Source of the DNA: Escherichia coli phage phiS
Reading direction: 5' to 3' (one strand)
Length of the DNA: 64,000 bases
Sequence record: PP449093.1
Both the position numbers and the translations under genes were made by a program. Below, piece after piece: positions 14,014-33,665 of the stretch. Positions within the stretch are counted from its first letter, which is position 1. Each line of letters begins with the position of its first letter. The notes below the pieces were generated by a model that made no database searches, was not told the DNA's origin, and saw only the letters and a program-made list of their open reading frames with translations.

Positions 14014-14750
14014 AAATTAGCAAAAGGTGAACCAGTGCCATTAATAGGATCAAACGGGTCAATAAAATCTTGTCCTTCGCTTCTGAATTGCTTATCTTCT
14101 TTGTACTGATCTAAGTTGATATCTGTTAACCCGTCCAGATTAGTGATCGGTGCAAGGTCCAGATCCGCAAACTCATCAACATTAATTCCCTCATTGCGTT
14201 GTAATTCTGGTCGCAATTCCTCACCGCTATACACGAATTTCTCTGCAATAATTTTACGCATGGCATTTTTGCCAGCCTGAAAAAACGGCTGATATGGCTC
14301 TACATATGAGATTTCAAATAAATCATTGCTCATAGGAATGTAAAACAAATCACCGGATTTAGGCTCTTGGTTATCTACTTGATGTTTAAATAAATTTGGA
14401 TTTATAGTTATGGTTAACTCATCATTAGCGGTATAACCGAAAGATTGAAAGAAATTGCCAGCACCCTCATACCCATCGAAAGAATTTATGTATGCTGCAA
14501 ACTTCCACGCCTTAGTGAATTTGCTTTGCACGTCCTCCCCAAATATCATATCAGGTTTCACAAATTCTCTCGGTATGTAGTACATCTCGACGCCGCGCAT
14601 TTGTATAGACTCGGCAACCATAATATCGGCTAGAGTTTGTGTATTTGTATGTGAATTGAAATTCACATAAGGATTGAGAATTTCTGTTTGTCTAGTGTTC
14701 TCATAATCCTTCTGTGACTCCAATCTGGCAAATAATGTAGAGTCAAACAT
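14010..14750 (-). CDS. 14: neck protein gp14
   Basis: 246-aa ORF in the T4 gene 14 position. Confidence 0.75.
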
Positions 14751-15327
14751 AATAAAACTCCTTCCATTTTTCTGCGGTTGACTTTACTCGTTTCCTCATA
14801 GAAGCGGCTGATATCCCATACTTTCTACAACATTCTTGAGTGGTTAAGTATAGAACACCTTCTGCCATAATTTTTCTTGCGCCTTTAAAATTTTCCCAAT
14901 CTCTATTTCTATTTTTTGCCGATTGACTCATTTTATTTTTAGTCTCGTCTGAGTGAGATTCTCTTTTTCGACTGGATGCTTTTTCAGATATTTTTCTTCT
15001 TGCTTCATTTTTGGTTTCTTCGTCCATGTCATCCCACAAAGAACCTCTATTCACTCCACCCAGAGCAATATTATATGTATCTTCTCTTTCTACAAATTCC
15101 TTAGTCACTATCTTTTTTTCTGCTAAAGCTAGTTCTTCTAACGTGTTGTGTGTGGAAAGAATAGTTTTTGTGAAGTTCTCTATTCCATACTTTTTTATTG
15201 CTCTTTTAATTCGTTTTCCGCTCCCCCAATAAGAATCCTTTTCTATTGGTTTTCTGGACGTTCTCATACCAACATAGACCATCCCATTTAAATTATTTGT
15301 TATTTGATATAGATAATAATATGCCAT
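14743..15327 (-). CDS. GIY-YIG homing endonuclease (Seg-like)
   Basis: N-terminal GIY-YIG motif [19 protein letters not shown]...YNIALGG; inserted between genes 14 and 13. Confidence 0.75.
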
Positions 15328-15394: not shown

Positions 15395-16327
15395 TCAAAT
15401 CATGAGGATGCCGAACGGAGGATCTAATAATTCTAGTTCTTGTCGCAATTTCTCAATGTCGGCTCGTGCTTCTTCAATGATTCGGATACCATCAACAGTG
15501 ACACCACCGGGTAATTGCAGACCTTGATGTTTAGCCATGATGGACCCCCAAACCTCCTTAGTGAAGGCGGTGGCCATATCTTTCACCCAACGGTTATTAT
15601 ATGCGCCCTGCTTGTTCTCACTGATCGGTCCCATGCCAGCAACAATCCCGCTTAAACCAGCAGTTGGGTTATCATAAACGGCGCTAATCCCGCCAGCGGT
15701 AGAACATCCTCCCGCATGAGCATAACCAGCAACCGCACCGATCATATCAGGAACGTCTATATAGCTTTTAACATATAATTCAACAACAATGAGATCACCT
15801 TCTCGGAAGTTTCCTGTAATCTTAAGTTGTCCGTTTGCGCTATTATACCAATAATCTGGAAGCGGATTGAGCATATTTTGCATAGTTGCGCGATAGCTCA
15901 TAAGCTGTTCGAAATATCCCAGATCACCGCCCATTGCATTTGGACCATAAAATTTACTACAGCCAGATCCTAAACCGCCATTTACACCCGCTAAACCCAA
16001 CAGAAAGTCAGTAAACCACGGATAAACGGCAGTGCCATCCATCGTAGCCGCGCTACCTACGTTTGTTCGAATTATTTTAGTTACTGCGAATACTCCAGAA
16101 TCGCTTAAATCAAATACCCCGTGTTGCGCTTGCTCTGCACTAACACGAAATACTTTATATCCTTTATTCACACCATCGAAATGATATTCCCCATAGAGTT
16201 CTAGTGCTCTCTGAATACAATCGTAAATCTGGTCTTCTGTGACTTCTACGTTAATTACTGGTGCGCCTAAACGACGCAGAATAGCGTCTTTTAATTCTCT
16301 TGGGTTATTGGTTACATATCCTGACAT
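15395..16327 (-). CDS. 13: neck protein gp13
   Basis: 310-aa ORF; T4 gp13 size and position. Confidence 0.75.
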
Positions 16328-16341
16328 AATATCACCTATAA

Positions 16342-16366
16342 ACGGAAAAGGGGCTTAACGCCCCTT
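16342..16366 (-). terminator. hairpin/terminator-like element between wac and gene 13
   Basis: Inverted repeat AGGGGCGTTAAGCCCCT followed by TTTT on the minus strand. Confidence 0.4.
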
Positions 16367-16373
16367 TAATTTC

Positions 16374-18143
16374 TTATACCGGAGAAATTCCAAAGAGGAA
16401 CTCTTTAATTTGTAGCTGTTGCGCTAATGCTTCTTCGGATACGCCCTTAATGCGAATATCGATCCGGTCGCCCTTTTCAATATTTAGGAAAGCACTGGTA
16501 GAATAGCTAATTAAATCATCAGGTCCATAATGACCATTTCGTACCTCATGTACAATCAGACCATTTTTAGCAATACCGACTACGAAAGTAGCGTTATGTG
16601 CCGCATTTACAGAACAACGGAAATCACAACGGAATAAGCCTTTGTCGTTAACCGTAACAAGAGATTCGCTCTTAACCATTCCACGCGCAGGAACTTCTTC
16701 GGTCATATCGTTTAGCGGGATTCCTTTGTATTGATCTTGTCCGTCGAGAGTAATATCAATCTGAGCGGTGTTTTTAAATGCACCAGCCGCCCATGCGACC
16801 TGAACCCATTCCCCGTGCTTACGTAGATAATGGAAACCATCATCAGGAACGTCTGTTACCTTGCTTGCATTTGATGTGCTCAATTCCTTAACAGTTTTCA
16901 CGATCCCATCTTGTTCAAGCTGCGTGCTTCCTTCTGGATTGCCGTACATGTCGCTTGACAGCTTAATAACCCCGGCGGTTAGACCGGAATCTCGATCTCC
17001 GATCATTTGCTCGATATCCTGTACGCTAGCTTCTAGTCGTCCCTGTGTATTTTCTACAATTTTTAGACGACCTGCGATAGTATGACGCTCACTATCAGTA
17101 CCAACTGTGTTAGAGATTCGTGCAACCTCACCACGTAGACCATCAGCACCACTAACACCGACAATAGATTTAAGATCTACAAATTCCCGTTCTTGATTAG
17201 TCAATCGATAATCAATACTTCCAGCGGCTTGAGGACTGCCAATCGTATTTTCCAGAAGAGTTAAACGAGGACGGATACCAGCGTCAACCCCGTTGACTTC
17301 ATCATTAAGCTGTGTATAATCAGATTGTAGCTTAGTTACTTTAGTACCGATATCAGGAATTGATTCAAATAGAATCGCTTTCTTTACTTCCTGAACTTCG
17401 TTTGATATACTAGCGATATTGCGAGTATTTGTGCGAAGACGAAGATAAACATTGTCCTGTGTTGCTAGTGATGTGTCGCCTAGCTCGCTTCGCATTTTGT
17501 TAACTTGTTCTGTTAGCTCTCCAACGTCAGAATCTTGCCAGTCGTTTTCTAGTTGGCGGATTCGCTGACCGTGGTTGTTTAATGCTTCCGTATTCTGGAT
17601 AACTCGATATTTGATACCGGAACCGGAACTACCCGGATCTGGAGAGCCGTTGATATTGAAGTTAGGGAAAGCGCCCAATTCTTGTTTGATGAAAGAAATA
17701 TCATCATATATTGTTCGTGTACTCGGATCTGCTGCCGGACGAACACCAATTTTCTTTCCTGTCTCTGCCAGTTCATCTACTGTGGTTTGTAATGTCCTTG
17801 AAGTTTCTCCTAAATTTTCTTCTACAGACTCAACCTTTGAAATAGTTTGATTGACAATATCAATAATACTACCATCAGCAACCGCGCCTAAAGTAGTTTT
17901 AATATCATTAACTGCTGTAACAACTTCGTTAACTTTTGTTACCGTTGTCTTAGAATTTTCATCCAGACGAACAATATTTTCTTGAATAGCATAAGGGGCG
18001 CGGTTAAGCGTCCCCTCATGTCCTGTTTCTGTGGTTGCTGCGCTTAGACATTCACCATTTTTAATCCAGCTAATAGAATGCTGTCCCTCTCCAGGGACAC
18101 CATCGACGTTAGGGATCTTTCGAATGTTTAACTGTTCGATCAT
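16374..18143 (-). CDS. wac: fibritin (whisker antigen control, wac) with extended C-terminal domain
   Basis: N-terminus NVDGVPGEGQHSISWIKNGE matches recalled T4 fibritin; foldon-like DGFHYLRKHGEWVQV near residue 440; about 140 extra C-terminal residues not present in T4 wac. Confidence 0.8.
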   Translation of the reverse strand: MIEQLNIRKIPNVDGVPGEGQHSISWIKNGECLSAATTETGHEGTLNRAPYAIQENIVRLDENSKTTVTKVNEVVTAVNDIKTTLGAVADGSIIDIVNQTISKVESVEENLGETSRTLQTTVDELAETGKKIGVRPAADPSTRTIYDDISFIKQELGAFPNFNINGSPDPGSSGSGIKYRVIQNTEALNNHGQRIRQLENDWQDSDVGELTEQVNKMRSELGDTSLATQDNVYLRLRTNTRNIASISNEVQEVKKAILFESIPDIGTKVTKLQSDYTQLNDEVNGVDAGIRPRLTLLENTIGSPQAAGSIDYRLTNQEREFVDLKSIVGVSGADGLRGEVARISNTVGTDSERHTIAGRLKIVENTQGRLEASVQDIEQMIGDRDSGLTAGVIKLSSDMYGNPEGSTQLEQDGIVKTVKELSTSNASKVTDVPDDGFHYLRKHGEWVQVAWAAGAFKNTAQIDITLDGQDQYKGIPLNDMTEEVPARGMVKSESLVTVNDKGLFRCDFRCSVNAAHNATFVVGIAKNGLIVHEVRNGHYGPDDLISYSTSAFLNIEKGDRIDIRIKGVSEEALAQQLQIKEFLFGISPV

Positions 18144-19546
18144 TATTGTACCCTTATCATGTAGTTTAATGCAAGGCTTTTAACGCGAGTTTCGCCAGAC
18201 GTTCTAACCTGTCTTGCGCTGTCAAAGTTAACAATACTACCCCAATCATCACCACCACCGTTTTTATAGTTCGTGCTCCATTGACCACCTGTGATGGAAA
18301 ATGCACCACCAGTCCAACCGCGCCAACGGTTAGCTACAGGGAAGTTACCTGTCATATGTTGCATGGTGTCGTCTTGATAAGTACCAAATCCACGACCTGG
18401 GTCTAGTCCTCGACCGTGGTCGCATCCTCTAGCAACAAGCCCTCGCATATCGGGTAGAGCAAAGTTGTCTCCGCCATCTCCGCCGTAAGTGAAACCGATT
18501 CGTGAAAATAATACTGGATATTGGTGTTTATTTAACCATTGACCGTTACAGATTTTGAATTGTGCGTGGTCGAAACTGTTAAATGCTGTAAGAATGATGC
18601 CACCAATAGGCATACAAAGACCATCCAGTTCATTTTTAATGATAAACTGGTTTCCGTCGCCTCCGCTATGACGATACACATCACCAGTAACGACACCACC
18701 ACTTAGAGGCAATACACGAGCATTTGCCGACAGTGCTGTGTTTGCCTCGCCTGATCCTGGGTTATCTGTTAGCTTAACAACACCGAATTGTCCAGTGGTT
18801 GCTTTAGTGTTCGCAAATTTTTGTGCTGATACTACTACTGTGTTGTCATTGCCGTCAATCATTTGTTGGGATGAGGCAATTTTAACAGTACCCGCCTGAT
18901 TTTCATTGGCTCTTGCGTTGGAAAATGCATATGGACTAACGGCAAATCCTTCTCTGATAGTACCAGCAAGCGTTTGTTGGCTTGTCGCCAGTCTAACTAA
19001 ACCCTCACGGGACTCGGTCGCCGTGTTTTGTTCTGGAATCAACCCAGGAACAATCTGAGCAATAGCAGCGTGCATCTTTTTAGGCGTTACTGCCATAGTG
19101 TCATCGCTACCTATTTTTGCCGCATCCATAGAACAGATTTTAATTGTACCCTGTACGGTTTCCGTTGCTTTCTTGTTCTCGAATACATGGGTTAATGTAT
19201 CAGGACCAATTGCAATATTTGGAGTATCGCCCATAGCTTCATCGTTATTAGCATAGCGAGTGATCCCTTTGACAAGTTTTGTTGCGTCCGGTCTTGACAG
19301 CTTAACAGCCAATGTTTTTGGGGTAACAATTTTAGTTCCATCCAACCCATCATCTACTTCTTGTTGAGTAGCAATTTCAGCAATACCCGCTGTTTCTTCG
19401 GTTGCCGTTGGAAGACCTGCAATCGCAAATCCCTGAATAGCGGCTAATGCCGCTTGTACGTTTTTTATATTGCTAGGCCAATTTCCGGTAGGGTCAAACT
19501 TAACATACTGTGCATCGTCTTTTACGTGATTAATAGTGTTATTCAT
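18143..19546 (-). CDS. 12: short tail fiber protein gp12
   Basis: 467-aa ORF in the T4 gene 12 position between wac and 11. Confidence 0.7.
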   Translation of the reverse strand: MNNTINHVKDDAQYVKFDPTGNWPSNIKNVQAALAAIQGFAIAGLPTATEETAGIAEIATQQEVDDGLDGTKIVTPKTLAVKLSRPDATKLVKGITRYANNDEAMGDTPNIAIGPDTLTHVFENKKATETVQGTIKICSMDAAKIGSDDTMAVTPKKMHAAIAQIVPGLIPEQNTATESREGLVRLATSQQTLAGTIREGFAVSPYAFSNARANENQAGTVKIASSQQMIDGNDNTVVVSAQKFANTKATTGQFGVVKLTDNPGSGEANTALSANARVLPLSGGVVTGDVYRHSGGDGNQFIIKNELDGLCMPIGGIILTAFNSFDHAQFKICNGQWLNKHQYPVLFSRIGFTYGGDGGDNFALPDMRGLVARGCDHGRGLDPGRGFGTYQDDTMQHMTGNFPVANRWRGWTGGAFSITGGQWSTNYKNGGGDDWGSIVNFDSARQVRTSGETRVKSLALNYMIRVQ

Positions 19547-22884: not shown

Positions 22885-22892
22885 TATTTATA
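22885..22892 (-). promoter_or_regulatory. T4-type late promoter (TATAAATA) for gene 9
   Basis: TATAAATA on the minus strand about 30 nt upstream of the gp9 ATG, just downstream of a terminator. Confidence 0.5.
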
Positions 22893-31299: not shown

Positions 31300-33099
31300 T
31301 CACCCAAGATCAATACGGCTACCATCAATTTTAACTGTACCCGATGCAATATCTTTAACGTTTGCACCACAATTACGGGACCAGTCACCATTAACCTGAT
31401 CTGATTTAGTGCCATTGACGGTCATATTAAAATTACCTTCAACGGTTAAATCATAGTTACCTTTAATTGTCTCGGTAGTATTACCCTCGATCATTAATTC
31501 AGCATTACCCTTGACGTTAGCCGTCAAATTAGCGTCAAGCTGTGCGGTAACATCACCTACAACATGCATATTCGCAGTACCCTCAACGGTCTGATTAACA
31601 TTGCCACGAATAAATTCAGTGACGTTACCATCAACGGTTTGCATCACATTACCCATATAATAAACTTGCGCGTCACCTTCAACAACAACTTGCAGATTGC
31701 CTTTAACGTTGACTTTGCGACCTTGCTTAACGATCAAATAATCATCACCTTCAATCTTTTCTACCCTCGTTCCGTCCGGTCTGGTTTCTTCAAATGTACC
31801 AGAAGGATGTTTACGATGATATCGCTCGTGAGAAGGAGTATCATCAATCTCTATAATATGACCGCTCTCTGACTCGTATACATGGTTATAAGGATACCTT
31901 GCAGAATACGAACTCTTAGGCTCTTTAAACATGATTCGTGTGTCTTGTGGGGTAAACGGTGCTTCTGGGTCTTCTTCTGCTCTCTGTGTCTTATAGGCAG
32001 CAATACGGGCTTTTCTTAAACGCTCTCTAGGATCATCAGAAATTGATTCCTCTTTCTTTGTAGCAATTACGCCATATGATTCTAAGTTACCAGTAAGAAT
32101 AATTTTAGAAACACGGTTGGAGCGTCCTGGAGTTTGACTAGCCCATACAGATTGACGTAATCCATCATAGGCTTGTTTCCATTCTTCCGCCAGCATTGCA
32201 GCAAGACTATTCTTAAATTTACCCAATCCACCAACGCCCATTTGAAACGCCATATTTTCTAATGCCATACGACGAGAAGCATTACATTTATTATAGACAG
32301 GTGCAATACGTGGATGTTTGCGCATATCACGACGGGTCTTTTCTATATCGTCAGCAAATACTTTACTAACTTCTTCGGCGGTAAGTCTTCCGTTTGTAAC
32401 TTCACGCCCTACCAGCTTAGAAAGTTCATTATTGATAATACCCAGATCACTGGTTTTCTTATAAATGATCAAATGCCCGATCCCTATTGTCGGATATCCT
32501 TCTGAATCAAGATACCATTTCTCGCGATATCCCTCATCGCCCCGCAGCATTTTTTCTATTGTAAAATCAGGATTATCATCAACCGGAATTTGGTCTAATG
32601 GCTCGTCGTCTGGATTTACTGCAACTCCAGTGTTTTCATCTCGAATATAGACACTATCAGGTTTTGTTGTTTGTCCGGTTTCTGGGTTAATACCGCCACG
32701 GGCAAGAATATTAACATCATTACCAATATAACGAGGATATGCACCAGAAGGGTCACAAAAACCTTCTGTAGTGAGTGGTTTCTCTGTATATTGTCCGGCA
32801 ATAGTACCCAGAATAACGCAGTTTAAATAACGTTCATCTAAAGCCAAACCAAATACCATTGAACCTTCAACAATACCAGTAGGACTTTGACCTATACCGG
32901 AGATCGCCGCGCTTGTAATATCTTGTACTGGAGTAATCCATAATAGATCTTCGGTTGGGAGACCTTGAATGTCACCGTGTGCGGATAGCGAAGGATGTAT
33001 ACCATGAATCCTAACCTGAACACGCCCCAGCATTAATGGGTCTTCCCTGTTTTCTACAATTCCGGTAAACCATTTAACGGAGTTATTAAACATTAGCAT
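31300..33099 (-). CDS. 5: baseplate hub and tail lysozyme gp5
   Basis: 599-aa ORF; T4-lysozyme-like block DSEGYPTIGIGHLI; C-terminal VxGxxxxx beta-helix repeats. Confidence 0.9.
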   Translation of the reverse strand: MLMFNNSVKWFTGIVENREDPLMLGRVQVRIHGIHPSLSAHGDIQGLPTEDLLWITPVQDITSAAISGIGQSPTGIVEGSMVFGLALDERYLNCVILGTIAGQYTEKPLTTEGFCDPSGAYPRYIGNDVNILARGGINPETGQTTKPDSVYIRDENTGVAVNPDDEPLDQIPVDDNPDFTIEKMLRGDEGYREKWYLDSEGYPTIGIGHLIIYKKTSDLGIINNELSKLVGREVTNGRLTAEEVSKVFADDIEKTRRDMRKHPRIAPVYNKCNASRRMALENMAFQMGVGGLGKFKNSLAAMLAEEWKQAYDGLRQSVWASQTPGRSNRVSKIILTGNLESYGVIATKKEESISDDPRERLRKARIAAYKTQRAEEDPEAPFTPQDTRIMFKEPKSSYSARYPYNHVYESESGHIIEIDDTPSHERYHRKHPSGTFEETRPDGTRVEKIEGDDYLIVKQGRKVNVKGNLQVVVEGDAQVYYMGNVMQTVDGNVTEFIRGNVNQTVEGTANMHVVGDVTAQLDANLTANVKGNAELMIEGNTTETIKGNYDLTVEGNFNMTVNGTKSDQVNGDWSRNCGANVKDIASGTVKIDGSRIDLG

Positions 33100-33110
33100 A
33101 ATTAATCACC

Positions 33111-33665
33111 TTACACATCAGCCTTTTCCATTTCTCGAATGAATGCGTTAATAAATTGTTTAATTTGTGTAGGATCTATGATCTTGATCTTGCGTCGTTC
33201 CTCGTTGCGGAGGATCGCATCTTCCAGTGTATCTACTGCCGATAATGCACCATGAAACTGCAAATGACGGTGATGAATATCACCTTTATCATACCAATTG
33301 CTTGATCCTTTCGGATATTCGGTAAGATTCCAATACTTGTTTCCGTCAATATCAACGTGGTATAATACTTGATTTCCTCCTACATTTGCATATCGTTGTT
33401 CGGCTGATTCATATGCTGTCTCTTGATCGGTGATCCAGTCATGAAACGGATCGTATACGTCATTAAGCATCAGCAAGATCCAATAAAGTTGCTGGTTTCC
33501 GTATACTTCATATGCAACCTGTTCCGGTCGTGGGCTACCTTGAATGTAATATGTTTGTATGTTATAATCAGAAATTATTGCATTGAAATATGCGCGGTAA
33601 TTGCGCACAATGTCAGTAATCATCTTGCCGTTGTATTCAATGGCAGGGAAGAAAGAAAAGAGCAT
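33111..33665 (-). CDS. 53: baseplate wedge protein gp53
   Basis: 184-aa ORF; T4 gp53 size and position at the end of the baseplate cluster. Confidence 0.7.
   Translation of the reverse strand: MLFSFFPAIEYNGKMITDIVRNYRAYFNAIISDYNIQTYYIQGSPRPEQVAYEVYGNQQLYWILLMLNDVYDPFHDWITDQETAYESAEQRYANVGGNQVLYHVDIDGNKYWNLTEYPKGSSNWYDKGDIHHRHLQFHGALSAVDTLEDAILRNEERRKIKIIDPTQIKQFINAFIREMEKADV

What the first reader, a model, noticed from the sequence alone, without database searches (positions are those of the whole stretch)
16377..16781. Fibritin (wac) carries an extra C-terminal domain with C1q/TNF-like sequence features after a foldon-like motif
The N-terminus matches T4 fibritin and a foldon-like DGFHYLRKHGEWVQV is present. 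The protein then continues about 140 aa (589 versus 487 aa in T4) with a pattern reminiscent of C1q/TNF jelly-roll domains (GLFRCDFRCSVNAAHNATFVVGIAKNG ... ISYSTSAFLNIEKGDRIDIRI). A C1q-like head on the whiskers would suggest a receptor- or glycan-binding role.
Basis: partly seen in the sequence, partly recalled or inferred. Interest (0 to 1): 0.5.

Follow-up and report, generated by a model that had tools for sequence, protein, structure and literature searches.

The report
C1q-like knob on phage whisker protein
The neck-whisker protein (fibritin) of this RB49/JSE-type coliphage ends in a 139-residue domain that most likely has the C1q/TNF fold; the extra domain itself is already described in the literature, so only the fold assignment is new, and its function is untested.

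Summary
Window 16374..18143 (-) encodes a 589-aa fibritin (wac) between gene 12 and gene 13. It has a T4-like N-terminus and shaft and a true foldon (residues ~430-450). A further 139 residues (451-589; nt 16377-16793) follow, which T4 lacks.

The window is a Krischvirus (99% nt identity to phage JSE). All 57 Krischvirus records carry the same 589-aa architecture. The [quoted passage not shown] was described in 2005 and 2013.

The C1q/TNF-like reading is supported by three lines of evidence:
- sub-threshold Pfam hits to BclA_C and C1q;
- hhalign against an adiponectin gC1q profile, 89.9% probability (shuffled controls at most 10.8%);

The proposed receptor- or glycan-binding role is untested and gains little from comparison. 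The domain has no indels and is under purifying selection. Published RB49 host-range mutations map to gp38.

It is most likely a trimeric distal knob that nucleates folding and may dock the long tail fibres. Modest interest: a fold annotation on a known protein class.

The parts
16374..18143 (-). wac gene (fibritin, neck whiskers), 589 codons plus a TAA stop. Its ATG overlaps the gene 12 stop codon (TAATG).
   Evidence: ORF list; PHROG 1056 'fibritin neck whisker' at E 6.6e-181; 99% nt identity to the JSE wac gene; junction sequence.
17994..18143 (-). N-terminal collar/neck-attachment domain, residues 1-50.
   Evidence: Aligns with T4 fibritin N-terminal fragments 1ox3 and 2ibl (E ~2e-14). 78% of columns are invariant across 8 Krischvirus genomes.
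16869..17993 (-). Segmented coiled-coil shaft, residues 51-425.
   Evidence: Collinear alignment with the T4 fibritin shaft (residues 7-430 against 6-435 of 2bsg_A).
16794..16868 (-). Foldon-like beta-hairpin motif, residues 426-450 (VPDDGFHYLRKHGEWVQV).
   Evidence: Pfam Fibritin_C covers residues 368-450 and profile positions 2-91 of 93, at 86.4 bits against a cut-off of 21. phmmer aligns residues 425-449 with T4 foldon residues 456-480.
16377..16793 (-). C-terminal C1q/TNF-like beta-jelly-roll domain, residues 451-589; predicted distal knob of the whisker.
16347..16367 (.). GC-rich hairpin (AAAGGGGC-loop-GCCCCTTT) in the 46-nt spacer between the wac stop and the gene 13 start; terminator-like.
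   Evidence: Sequence; terminator-like scan.

Best explanation
The last 139 residues of this Krischvirus (RB49/JSE-type) fibritin most likely fold as a C1q/TNF-superfamily-like beta-jelly-roll. Three copies would pack into a globular knob at the distal tip of each whisker, directly after a retained foldon hairpin.

Its primary role is probably structural. Like the gC1q/NC1 heads of collagens and the BclA C-terminal domain, it would act as the C-terminal trimerisation and chain-registration nucleus from which the long three-stranded shaft zips up. As the distal end of the whisker, it is also the likeliest surface to contact the long tail fibres, which is the role of the fibritin C-terminus in T4.

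Shown here: the architecture, the fold-level similarity, conservation across the genus, and purifying selection. Taken from the literature: the expanded C-terminal domain of RB49 fibritin is needed for folding and trimerisation. Inferred: the trimeric knob geometry and tail-fibre docking.
For: Architecture.

Fold:
- BclA_C matches 5 of 6 family members over almost the whole domain (best E 8.6e-5), and C1q matches 4 of 6 (best E 0.0035). Both hits fall in the same register.
- hhalign against a 64-sequence adiponectin-family gC1q profile gives probability 89.9%, P 1.7e-6. The reversed control gives 0.7% and 40 column shuffles reach at most 10.8%.
- In AlphaFold model 2, residues 47-139 have pLDDT of about 80 and are all-beta.
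- Foldseek on model 2: 49 of the top 50 PDB hits are C1q/TNF domains.
- Foldseek against BFVD returns many phage 'C1q domain containing' and tail-fibre proteins.

Structural role:
- The predicted F and H strands (domain residues 94-106 and 128-138) are invariant in 8 genomes. From general knowledge, these are inner-sheet trimer-interface strands in C1q/TNF folds. Variation falls in strands A, C, D, E and in loops.
- All 57 Krischvirus records have the same 589-aa length.
- dN/dS is 0.07-0.38.
Against: - No Pfam C1q/TNF-clan model reaches its gathering threshold. For the window sequence, BclA_C scores 17.4 against 38, and no C1q hit is reported.
- The structure models rest on a 3-sequence alignment. 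Mean pLDDT is 52.8 and 65.8, and domain residues 17-46 are unmodelled.
- Foldseek TM-scores are only 0.43-0.53.
- The most distant homologue (P0005) gives no Pfam C1q/BclA hit on its own.
- Trimer formation was not modelled.
- The tail-fibre knee protein gp36 does not co-vary with the domain type. The ECD7 group has a JSE-type domain but 99.8% RB49-type gp36.
Confidence: 0.6

Rival explanations
1. The C1q-like knob is a lectin or receptor-binding head. It would bind a host surface glycan such as LPS core, O antigen or capsule, or an environmental glycan, so the whiskers would help adsorption. This need not exclude a folding role.
For: - PMC7468147 treats phage C1q-like domains as putative receptor-binding modules.
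- Other fibritin types carry adhesion-type folds, for example the Ig-like domains of the RB43 type (PMC3797505).
- A 2026 preprint found LPS-sugar-predictive k-mers in gp12 and in the adjacent fibritin gene, although this could be linkage to gp12.
- dN/dS in the domain is somewhat higher than in the shaft in several pairs.
Against: - No indels or hypervariable loops appear in 57 genomes from hosts ranging from K-12 to O157 and Shigella. 69% of columns are invariant, against 65% in the shaft.
- Selection is purifying throughout.
- RB49 host-range mutants were otherwise identical in genome sequence and carried only gp38 changes. Brandy49, which has the broadest host range, has a domain 95% identical to that of RB49.
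- No binding data exist.
Confidence: 0.2
2. The domain is a generic beta-sandwich or jelly-roll (for example like a carbohydrate-binding module or a capsid protein) with no specific relationship to C1q/TNF. The resemblance would then be fold convergence plus a chance 'L-x-L-x-x-G-D' motif.
Against: Two related Pfam models, BclA_C and C1q, are hit in the same register by several members. The profile-profile score is well above the reversed and shuffled controls. The ranked fold lists from two programs and two models are dominated by C1q/TNF.
Confidence: 0.12
3. The domain is an intramolecular chaperone that is cleaved off after trimerisation, as in the endosialidase and T5 L-shaped-fibre S74 domains, and is absent from the virion.
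For: The literature says the expanded C-terminus is needed for folding. Foldseek against BFVD lists a few S74 / intramolecular-chaperone proteins among distant hits.
Against: There is no Peptidase_S74 match at E up to 10. The domain is predicted to be all-beta. From general knowledge, S74 chaperone domains are largely helical with a Ser-Lys dyad. No conserved cleavage motif was seen.
Confidence: 0.03

Closest known systems
RB49-type fibritin (Letarov et al. 2005; Letarov & Krisch 2013, PMC3797505)
   Same: This is that protein class. It has the conserved ~50-aa N-terminal domain and coiled-coil shaft, plus an expanded C-terminal domain not found in T4 and reported to be needed for folding and trimerisation. 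The domain is 76% identical to RB49 Wac and 100% identical to JSE Wac.
   Different: No difference in kind. [quoted passage not shown] Here a retained foldon motif and a C1q/TNF-like fold are shown.
T4 fibritin (gpwac; PDB 2bsg, 1aa0)
   Same: N-terminal domain, segmented coiled coil, foldon hairpin, and gene position between genes 12 and 13.
   Different: T4 ends 7 residues after the foldon (487 aa). This protein continues for 139 residues. According to PMC3797505, the foldon alone is not sufficient for RB49-type folding.
gC1q / collagen NC1 / BclA C-terminal domains (Pfam clan C1q_TNF: PF00386, PF18573)
   Same: A C-terminal jelly-roll of about 130-140 aa at the end of a trimeric fibrous stalk. 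The best fold matches are Cbln1, caprin-2, C1QL, collagen X NC1 and BclA. There is a shared D-to-G strand profile that includes the L-x-[LI]-x-x-G-D motif. In those families the head nucleates trimerisation of the stalk (general knowledge).
   Different: The stalk is an alpha-helical coiled coil plus foldon, not a collagen triple helix. Sequence scores are below the curated thresholds. Ligand binding is unknown.
Phage fibres with TNF/C1q-like heads (PRD1 P5; cyanophage A-1(L) short-tail-fibre CBD domain 8ke9; cyanophage A4 tail fibre 9k09)
   Different: Those are adsorption fibres on tails or vertices. This knob sits on neck whiskers, whose known job in T4 is handling the long tail fibres.

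Membership tests
Fibritin / Wac (T4-type neck whisker) | Conserved N-terminal attachment domain and collinear segmented coiled-coil shaft | tested here: met
   phmmer against 2bsg_A: E 1.8e-52 over residues 7-430. PHROG 1056: E 6.6e-181.
Fibritin / Wac (T4-type neck whisker) | C-terminal foldon region (Pfam PF07921 above its gathering score) | tested here: met
   86.4 bits against a cut-off of 21, residues 368-450. The foldon residues P-x-D-G-x-x-Y-x-R-K-x-G-E-W-V are conserved.
Fibritin / Wac (T4-type neck whisker) | Gene located between gene 12 (short tail fibre) and gene 13 (neck) | tested here: met
   ORF order in the window, and identical annotation in RB49, JSE and ECD7.
C1q domain (Pfam PF00386) | Sequence score at or above the gathering threshold (23.7 bits) | tested here: not met
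   No C1q hit is reported for the window sequence. Relatives score 14.6-18.0 bits.
C1q domain (Pfam PF00386) | Profile-profile similarity to gC1q | tested here: inconclusive
   hhalign probability 89.9%, P 1.7e-6, but only the D-to-G strands (about 52-61 columns) align confidently. Controls reach at most 10.8%.
C1q/TNF superfamily fold | Ten-strand jelly-roll matching solved C1q/TNF domains | tested here: inconclusive
C1q/TNF superfamily fold | Obligate trimer built on the inner (A'AHCF) sheet | not testable with these tools
   Only monomer prediction was available. Indirect evidence: the predicted F and H strands are invariant in 8 genomes.
BclA_C (Pfam PF18573) | Sequence score at or above the gathering threshold (38 bits) | tested here: not met
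   17.4 bits for the window and 22.9 bits for the best relative. Coverage is nearly full length (profile positions 3-115 of 128).
TNF (Pfam PF00229) | Any sequence match | tested here: not met
   Not listed at E up to 10. Similarity is at fold level only.
Peptidase_S74 intramolecular chaperone | Sequence match to the S74 domain | tested here: not met
   No hit at E up to 10.

The most novel reading that the evidence does not exclude
The whisker tip of Krischviruses is a C1q-type pattern-recognition head that reversibly binds a conserved host or environmental glycan, such as LPS core, enterobacterial common antigen or mucin. That would give the neck whiskers an adsorption or 'scanning' function that T4 whiskers lack. 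It would also help explain how some RB49-like phages get through O-antigen layers.
Probability: 0.15. Interest if true: 0.6.

Novelty: new member of a known kind. Interest (0 to 1): 0.3.

Why it matters
Fibritin C-terminal modules are among the few swapped parts in the otherwise conserved T4-type virion, and their functions outside T4 are unknown. A C1q/TNF-like fold gives the RB49-type module a concrete, testable model: a trimeric knob with a defined interface and exposed faces. That model can guide truncation, surface mutagenesis and binding assays. It also suggests a larger natural alternative to the T4 foldon as a trimerisation tag. The protein class itself is already known, so the gain is incremental.

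Tried and rejected
- **Word-indexed homologue searches.** Searches with the domain and with a domain alignment returned only two 110-aa fragments and one partial fibritin. The 110-aa 'proteins' are artefacts of an N-gap in a metagenome scaffold. No deep alignment could therefore be built for structure prediction.
- **Exhaustive HMMER search (1.84 billion representatives).** It found only a Krischvirus-type fibritin, one distant fibritin (P0005, 29% identical in the domain) and a repetitive protein judged spurious.
- **Other sequence searches.** A profile search of PDB sequences found nothing relevant. An IMG/VR scan gave only 3 Krischvirus-like loci.
- **Co-variation with the tail-fibre knee.** I tested whether the domain type co-varies with gp36. 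It does not: the ECD7 group has a JSE-type domain with RB49-type gp36. This gives no support for tight co-evolution, but it does not refute docking.
- **A natural relative lacking the domain.** Phage Skers lacks wac, but its record also lacks genes 9 to 16, including essential ones. It is most likely an assembly artefact.
- **Single-sequence hhalign against adiponectin.** This was weak (probability 17%). The family profile was needed.
- **Letarov et al. 2005.** The paper could not be retrieved. Statements about RB49 fibritin biochemistry come from the 2013 paper.

Full report
**What is there.** Window 16374..18143 on the minus strand is a 589-codon ORF. It lies between a gene 12 homologue (18143..19546, Pfam Collar domain) and a gene 13 homologue (15395..16327). 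Its ATG overlaps the gene 12 stop codon (TAATG). A GC-rich hairpin at 16347-16367 sits in the 46-nt spacer before gene 13. The protein matches PHROG 1056 'fibritin neck whisker' end to end (E 6.6e-181). Residues 7-430 align with T4 fibritin (487 aa, 2bsg_A, E 1.8e-52). Pfam Fibritin_C covers residues 368-450 at 86.4 bits against a cut-off of 21. Residues 425-449 align with the T4 foldon and keep the P-x-D-G-x-x-Y-x-R-K-x-G-E-W-V pattern. The extension beyond the foldon is 139 residues (451-589, nt 16377-16793).

**Whose genome.** The wac gene is 99.0% identical in nucleotide sequence to that of Escherichia phage JSE and 76-80% identical to the RB49, Phi1 and ECD7 groups. All 57 matching records are Krischvirus. 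A tblastn search with the 140-aa tail finds the same 57 records and nothing else among 50,697 phage records, at 74-100% identity. In the eight genomes aligned the protein is exactly 589 aa with no indel.

**What was already known.** Letarov and Krisch (PMC3797505) list an 'RB49-type' fibritin among eight C-terminal module types. [quoted passage not shown] Efimov et al. (PMC9569957) note that RB49-like Wac carries a C-terminal moiety unrelated to T4 Wac. The extra domain is therefore not new. I found no paper that assigns it a fold. The original 2005 paper could not be retrieved.

**Distribution.** An exhaustive HMMER search of 1.84 billion representative proteins with the 139-aa domain returned three hits:
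- a Krischvirus-type fibritin;
- one distant 591-aa fibritin, P0005;
- one repetitive protein judged spurious.

P0005 is collinear with this protein over its whole length. It is 40% identical overall and 29% identical in the domain. It keeps a foldon-like motif but not the two cysteines of FRCDFRC. In the phage collection its domain matches only Krischvirus wac genes. An IMG/VR scan gave three loci, all Krischvirus-like. The domain is thus a sequence orphan, confined to one genus and at least one uncultured sister lineage, and always found at the end of a fibritin.

**Is it C1q/TNF-like?** Three lines of evidence agree.

1. Pfam. The window domain gives a sub-threshold hit to BclA_C (E 0.004, 17.4 bits, cut-off 38) across nearly the whole profile. 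Among six family members scanned separately, five hit BclA_C (best E 8.6e-5) and four hit C1q (best E 0.0035, 18.0 bits against 23.7). All hits are in the same register. Both models belong to the C1q/TNF clan. The distant member P0005 hits neither.

2. Profile-profile comparison. I built a 64-sequence gC1q profile from adiponectin-family proteins. The query sequence was verified as 100% identical to PDB 4dou. hhalign of the domain alignment against this profile gives:

| Comparison | Score | Probability | P-value |
|---|---|---|---|
| Domain alignment vs gC1q profile | 41.5 | 89.9% | 1.7e-6 |
| Reversed alignment (control) | 15.5 | 0.7% | 0.086 |
| 40 column shuffles (control, maximum) | 23.8 | 10.8% | not recorded |

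The confident core is domain residues 66-118 against gC1q residues 60-111 (strands D to G). It includes FLNIEKGDRIDIRI aligned with LLHLEVGDQVWLQV.

Caveats:
- No curated threshold is reached.
- The A'-B'-B part of the domain is not confidently modelled.

I put the C1q/TNF-like fold at about 0.85. Formal membership of Pfam C1q or BclA_C is not met.

**How it evolves.** Across eight genomes 69% of domain columns are invariant, against 65% for the shaft. dN/dS is 0.07-0.38, so selection is purifying. It is somewhat relaxed relative to the shaft in some pairs, though dS is saturated in the deep pairs. The predicted F and H strands are completely invariant, and variation falls in strands A, C, D, E and in loops. 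From general knowledge of C1q/TNF folds, that fits a conserved inner-sheet trimer interface with exposed outer strands.

The ECD7 group is a clean recombinant. Residues 1 to about 470 are 99-100% RB49-type, and residues from about 476 to 589 are 99-100% window/JSE-type at nucleotide level. Part of the head has therefore been exchanged within the genus.

**Function.** The best-supported role is structural. The domain would form a trimeric C-terminal knob that nucleates and registers the three chains. This combines the published requirement for the expanded C-terminus with the fact that C1q/NC1/BclA heads do the same job for collagen-like stalks (general knowledge).

As the distal tip it is also the natural candidate for the contact with the long tail fibres, which the T4 fibritin C-terminus makes. 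This is inference. A test for co-variation with the knee protein gp36 was negative: ECD7 gp36 is 99.8% RB49-type despite its JSE-type head.

C1q-like heads on phage fibres are commonly regarded as binding modules. A 2026 preprint finds LPS-sugar-predictive k-mers in gp12 and in the neighbouring fibritin gene, though these may simply be linked to gp12.

Several points argue against a host-range-determining role:
- The head is uniform across phages from very different E. coli and Shigella hosts.
- RB49 host-range mutants carry only gp38 changes.
- Brandy49, which has the broadest host range, has a head 95% identical to RB49's.

A cleaved-chaperone role has no support: there is no S74 match and the domain is all-beta.

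**Verdict.** The fold interpretation is supported at superfamily level. The proposed function is untested and only weakly favoured. The protein class is already described, and the new element is a fold annotation that makes its function testable. Interest is about 0.3.

Noticed in passing
window 14743-15327 (-): A 194-aa GIY-YIG homing-endonuclease ORF (Pfam SegE_GIY-YIG, E 7.9e-7, plus a sub-threshold match to the I-TevI DNA-binding domain) sits between genes 13 and 14 and overlaps the gene 14 start. GC content drops to 0.33-0.35 there. RB49 and JK32 have nothing at this site. JSE has a homing endonuclease between genes 14 and 15 instead. ECD7 (segC) and KFS-EC have one after gene 13. The window phage is therefore not JSE itself, despite 99% wac identity.
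   Followed up: partly
L004 (ECD7) 154-1920, compared with window 16377-18143: The ECD7-group wac is a recombinant. It is RB49-type up to about residue 470 and window/JSE-type (99-100% nt) from about residue 476 to the end. The breakpoint lies inside the C1q-like domain.
   Followed up: yes
window 16347-16367: A symmetric GC-rich hairpin (AAAGGGGC-GTTAA-GCCCCTTT) lies between the wac stop and the gene 13 start. It is terminator-like on both strands. There is no TATAAATA late-promoter motif near wac; the nearest one upstream on the minus strand is at 22885-22892.
   Followed up: partly
window 18141-18145: The gene 12 stop and the wac start overlap as TAATG, which suggests translational coupling.
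   Followed up: no
L013 (MW748999.1, phage Skers) 11722-15222: This 'complete' Krischvirus record jumps from a gene 8-like baseplate gene to the large terminase. It lacks genes 9-16, including wac and essential neck genes. This is probably a misassembly, not a natural wac-less phage.
   Followed up: partly
L001 2409-4333: A metagenome scaffold has a run of N, with duplicated flanks, inside wac. This creates the spurious 110-aa ORF P0002. P0001 is likewise a fragment.
   Followed up: yes
P0005 (591 aa): A fibritin from an uncultured lineage has the same full architecture: 40% identity overall and 29% in the head. Its foldon-like motif is VPNDDFYYVRNHANWIQV. The two cysteines of the FRCDFRC motif are replaced (FRVDLRV), so a disulfide is not a conserved feature. 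BFVD entry A0A7S9SPP9 (594 aa) may belong to the same lineage.
   Followed up: partly
L012 (RB49) 32157-33647: Krischvirus gp36 (the long-tail-fibre knee connector) is 496 aa. From my recollection, not checked here, that is roughly twice the length of T4 gp36. It is 86-100% conserved across the genus, and its only other matches are Serratia phages at 31-33% identity.
   Followed up: no
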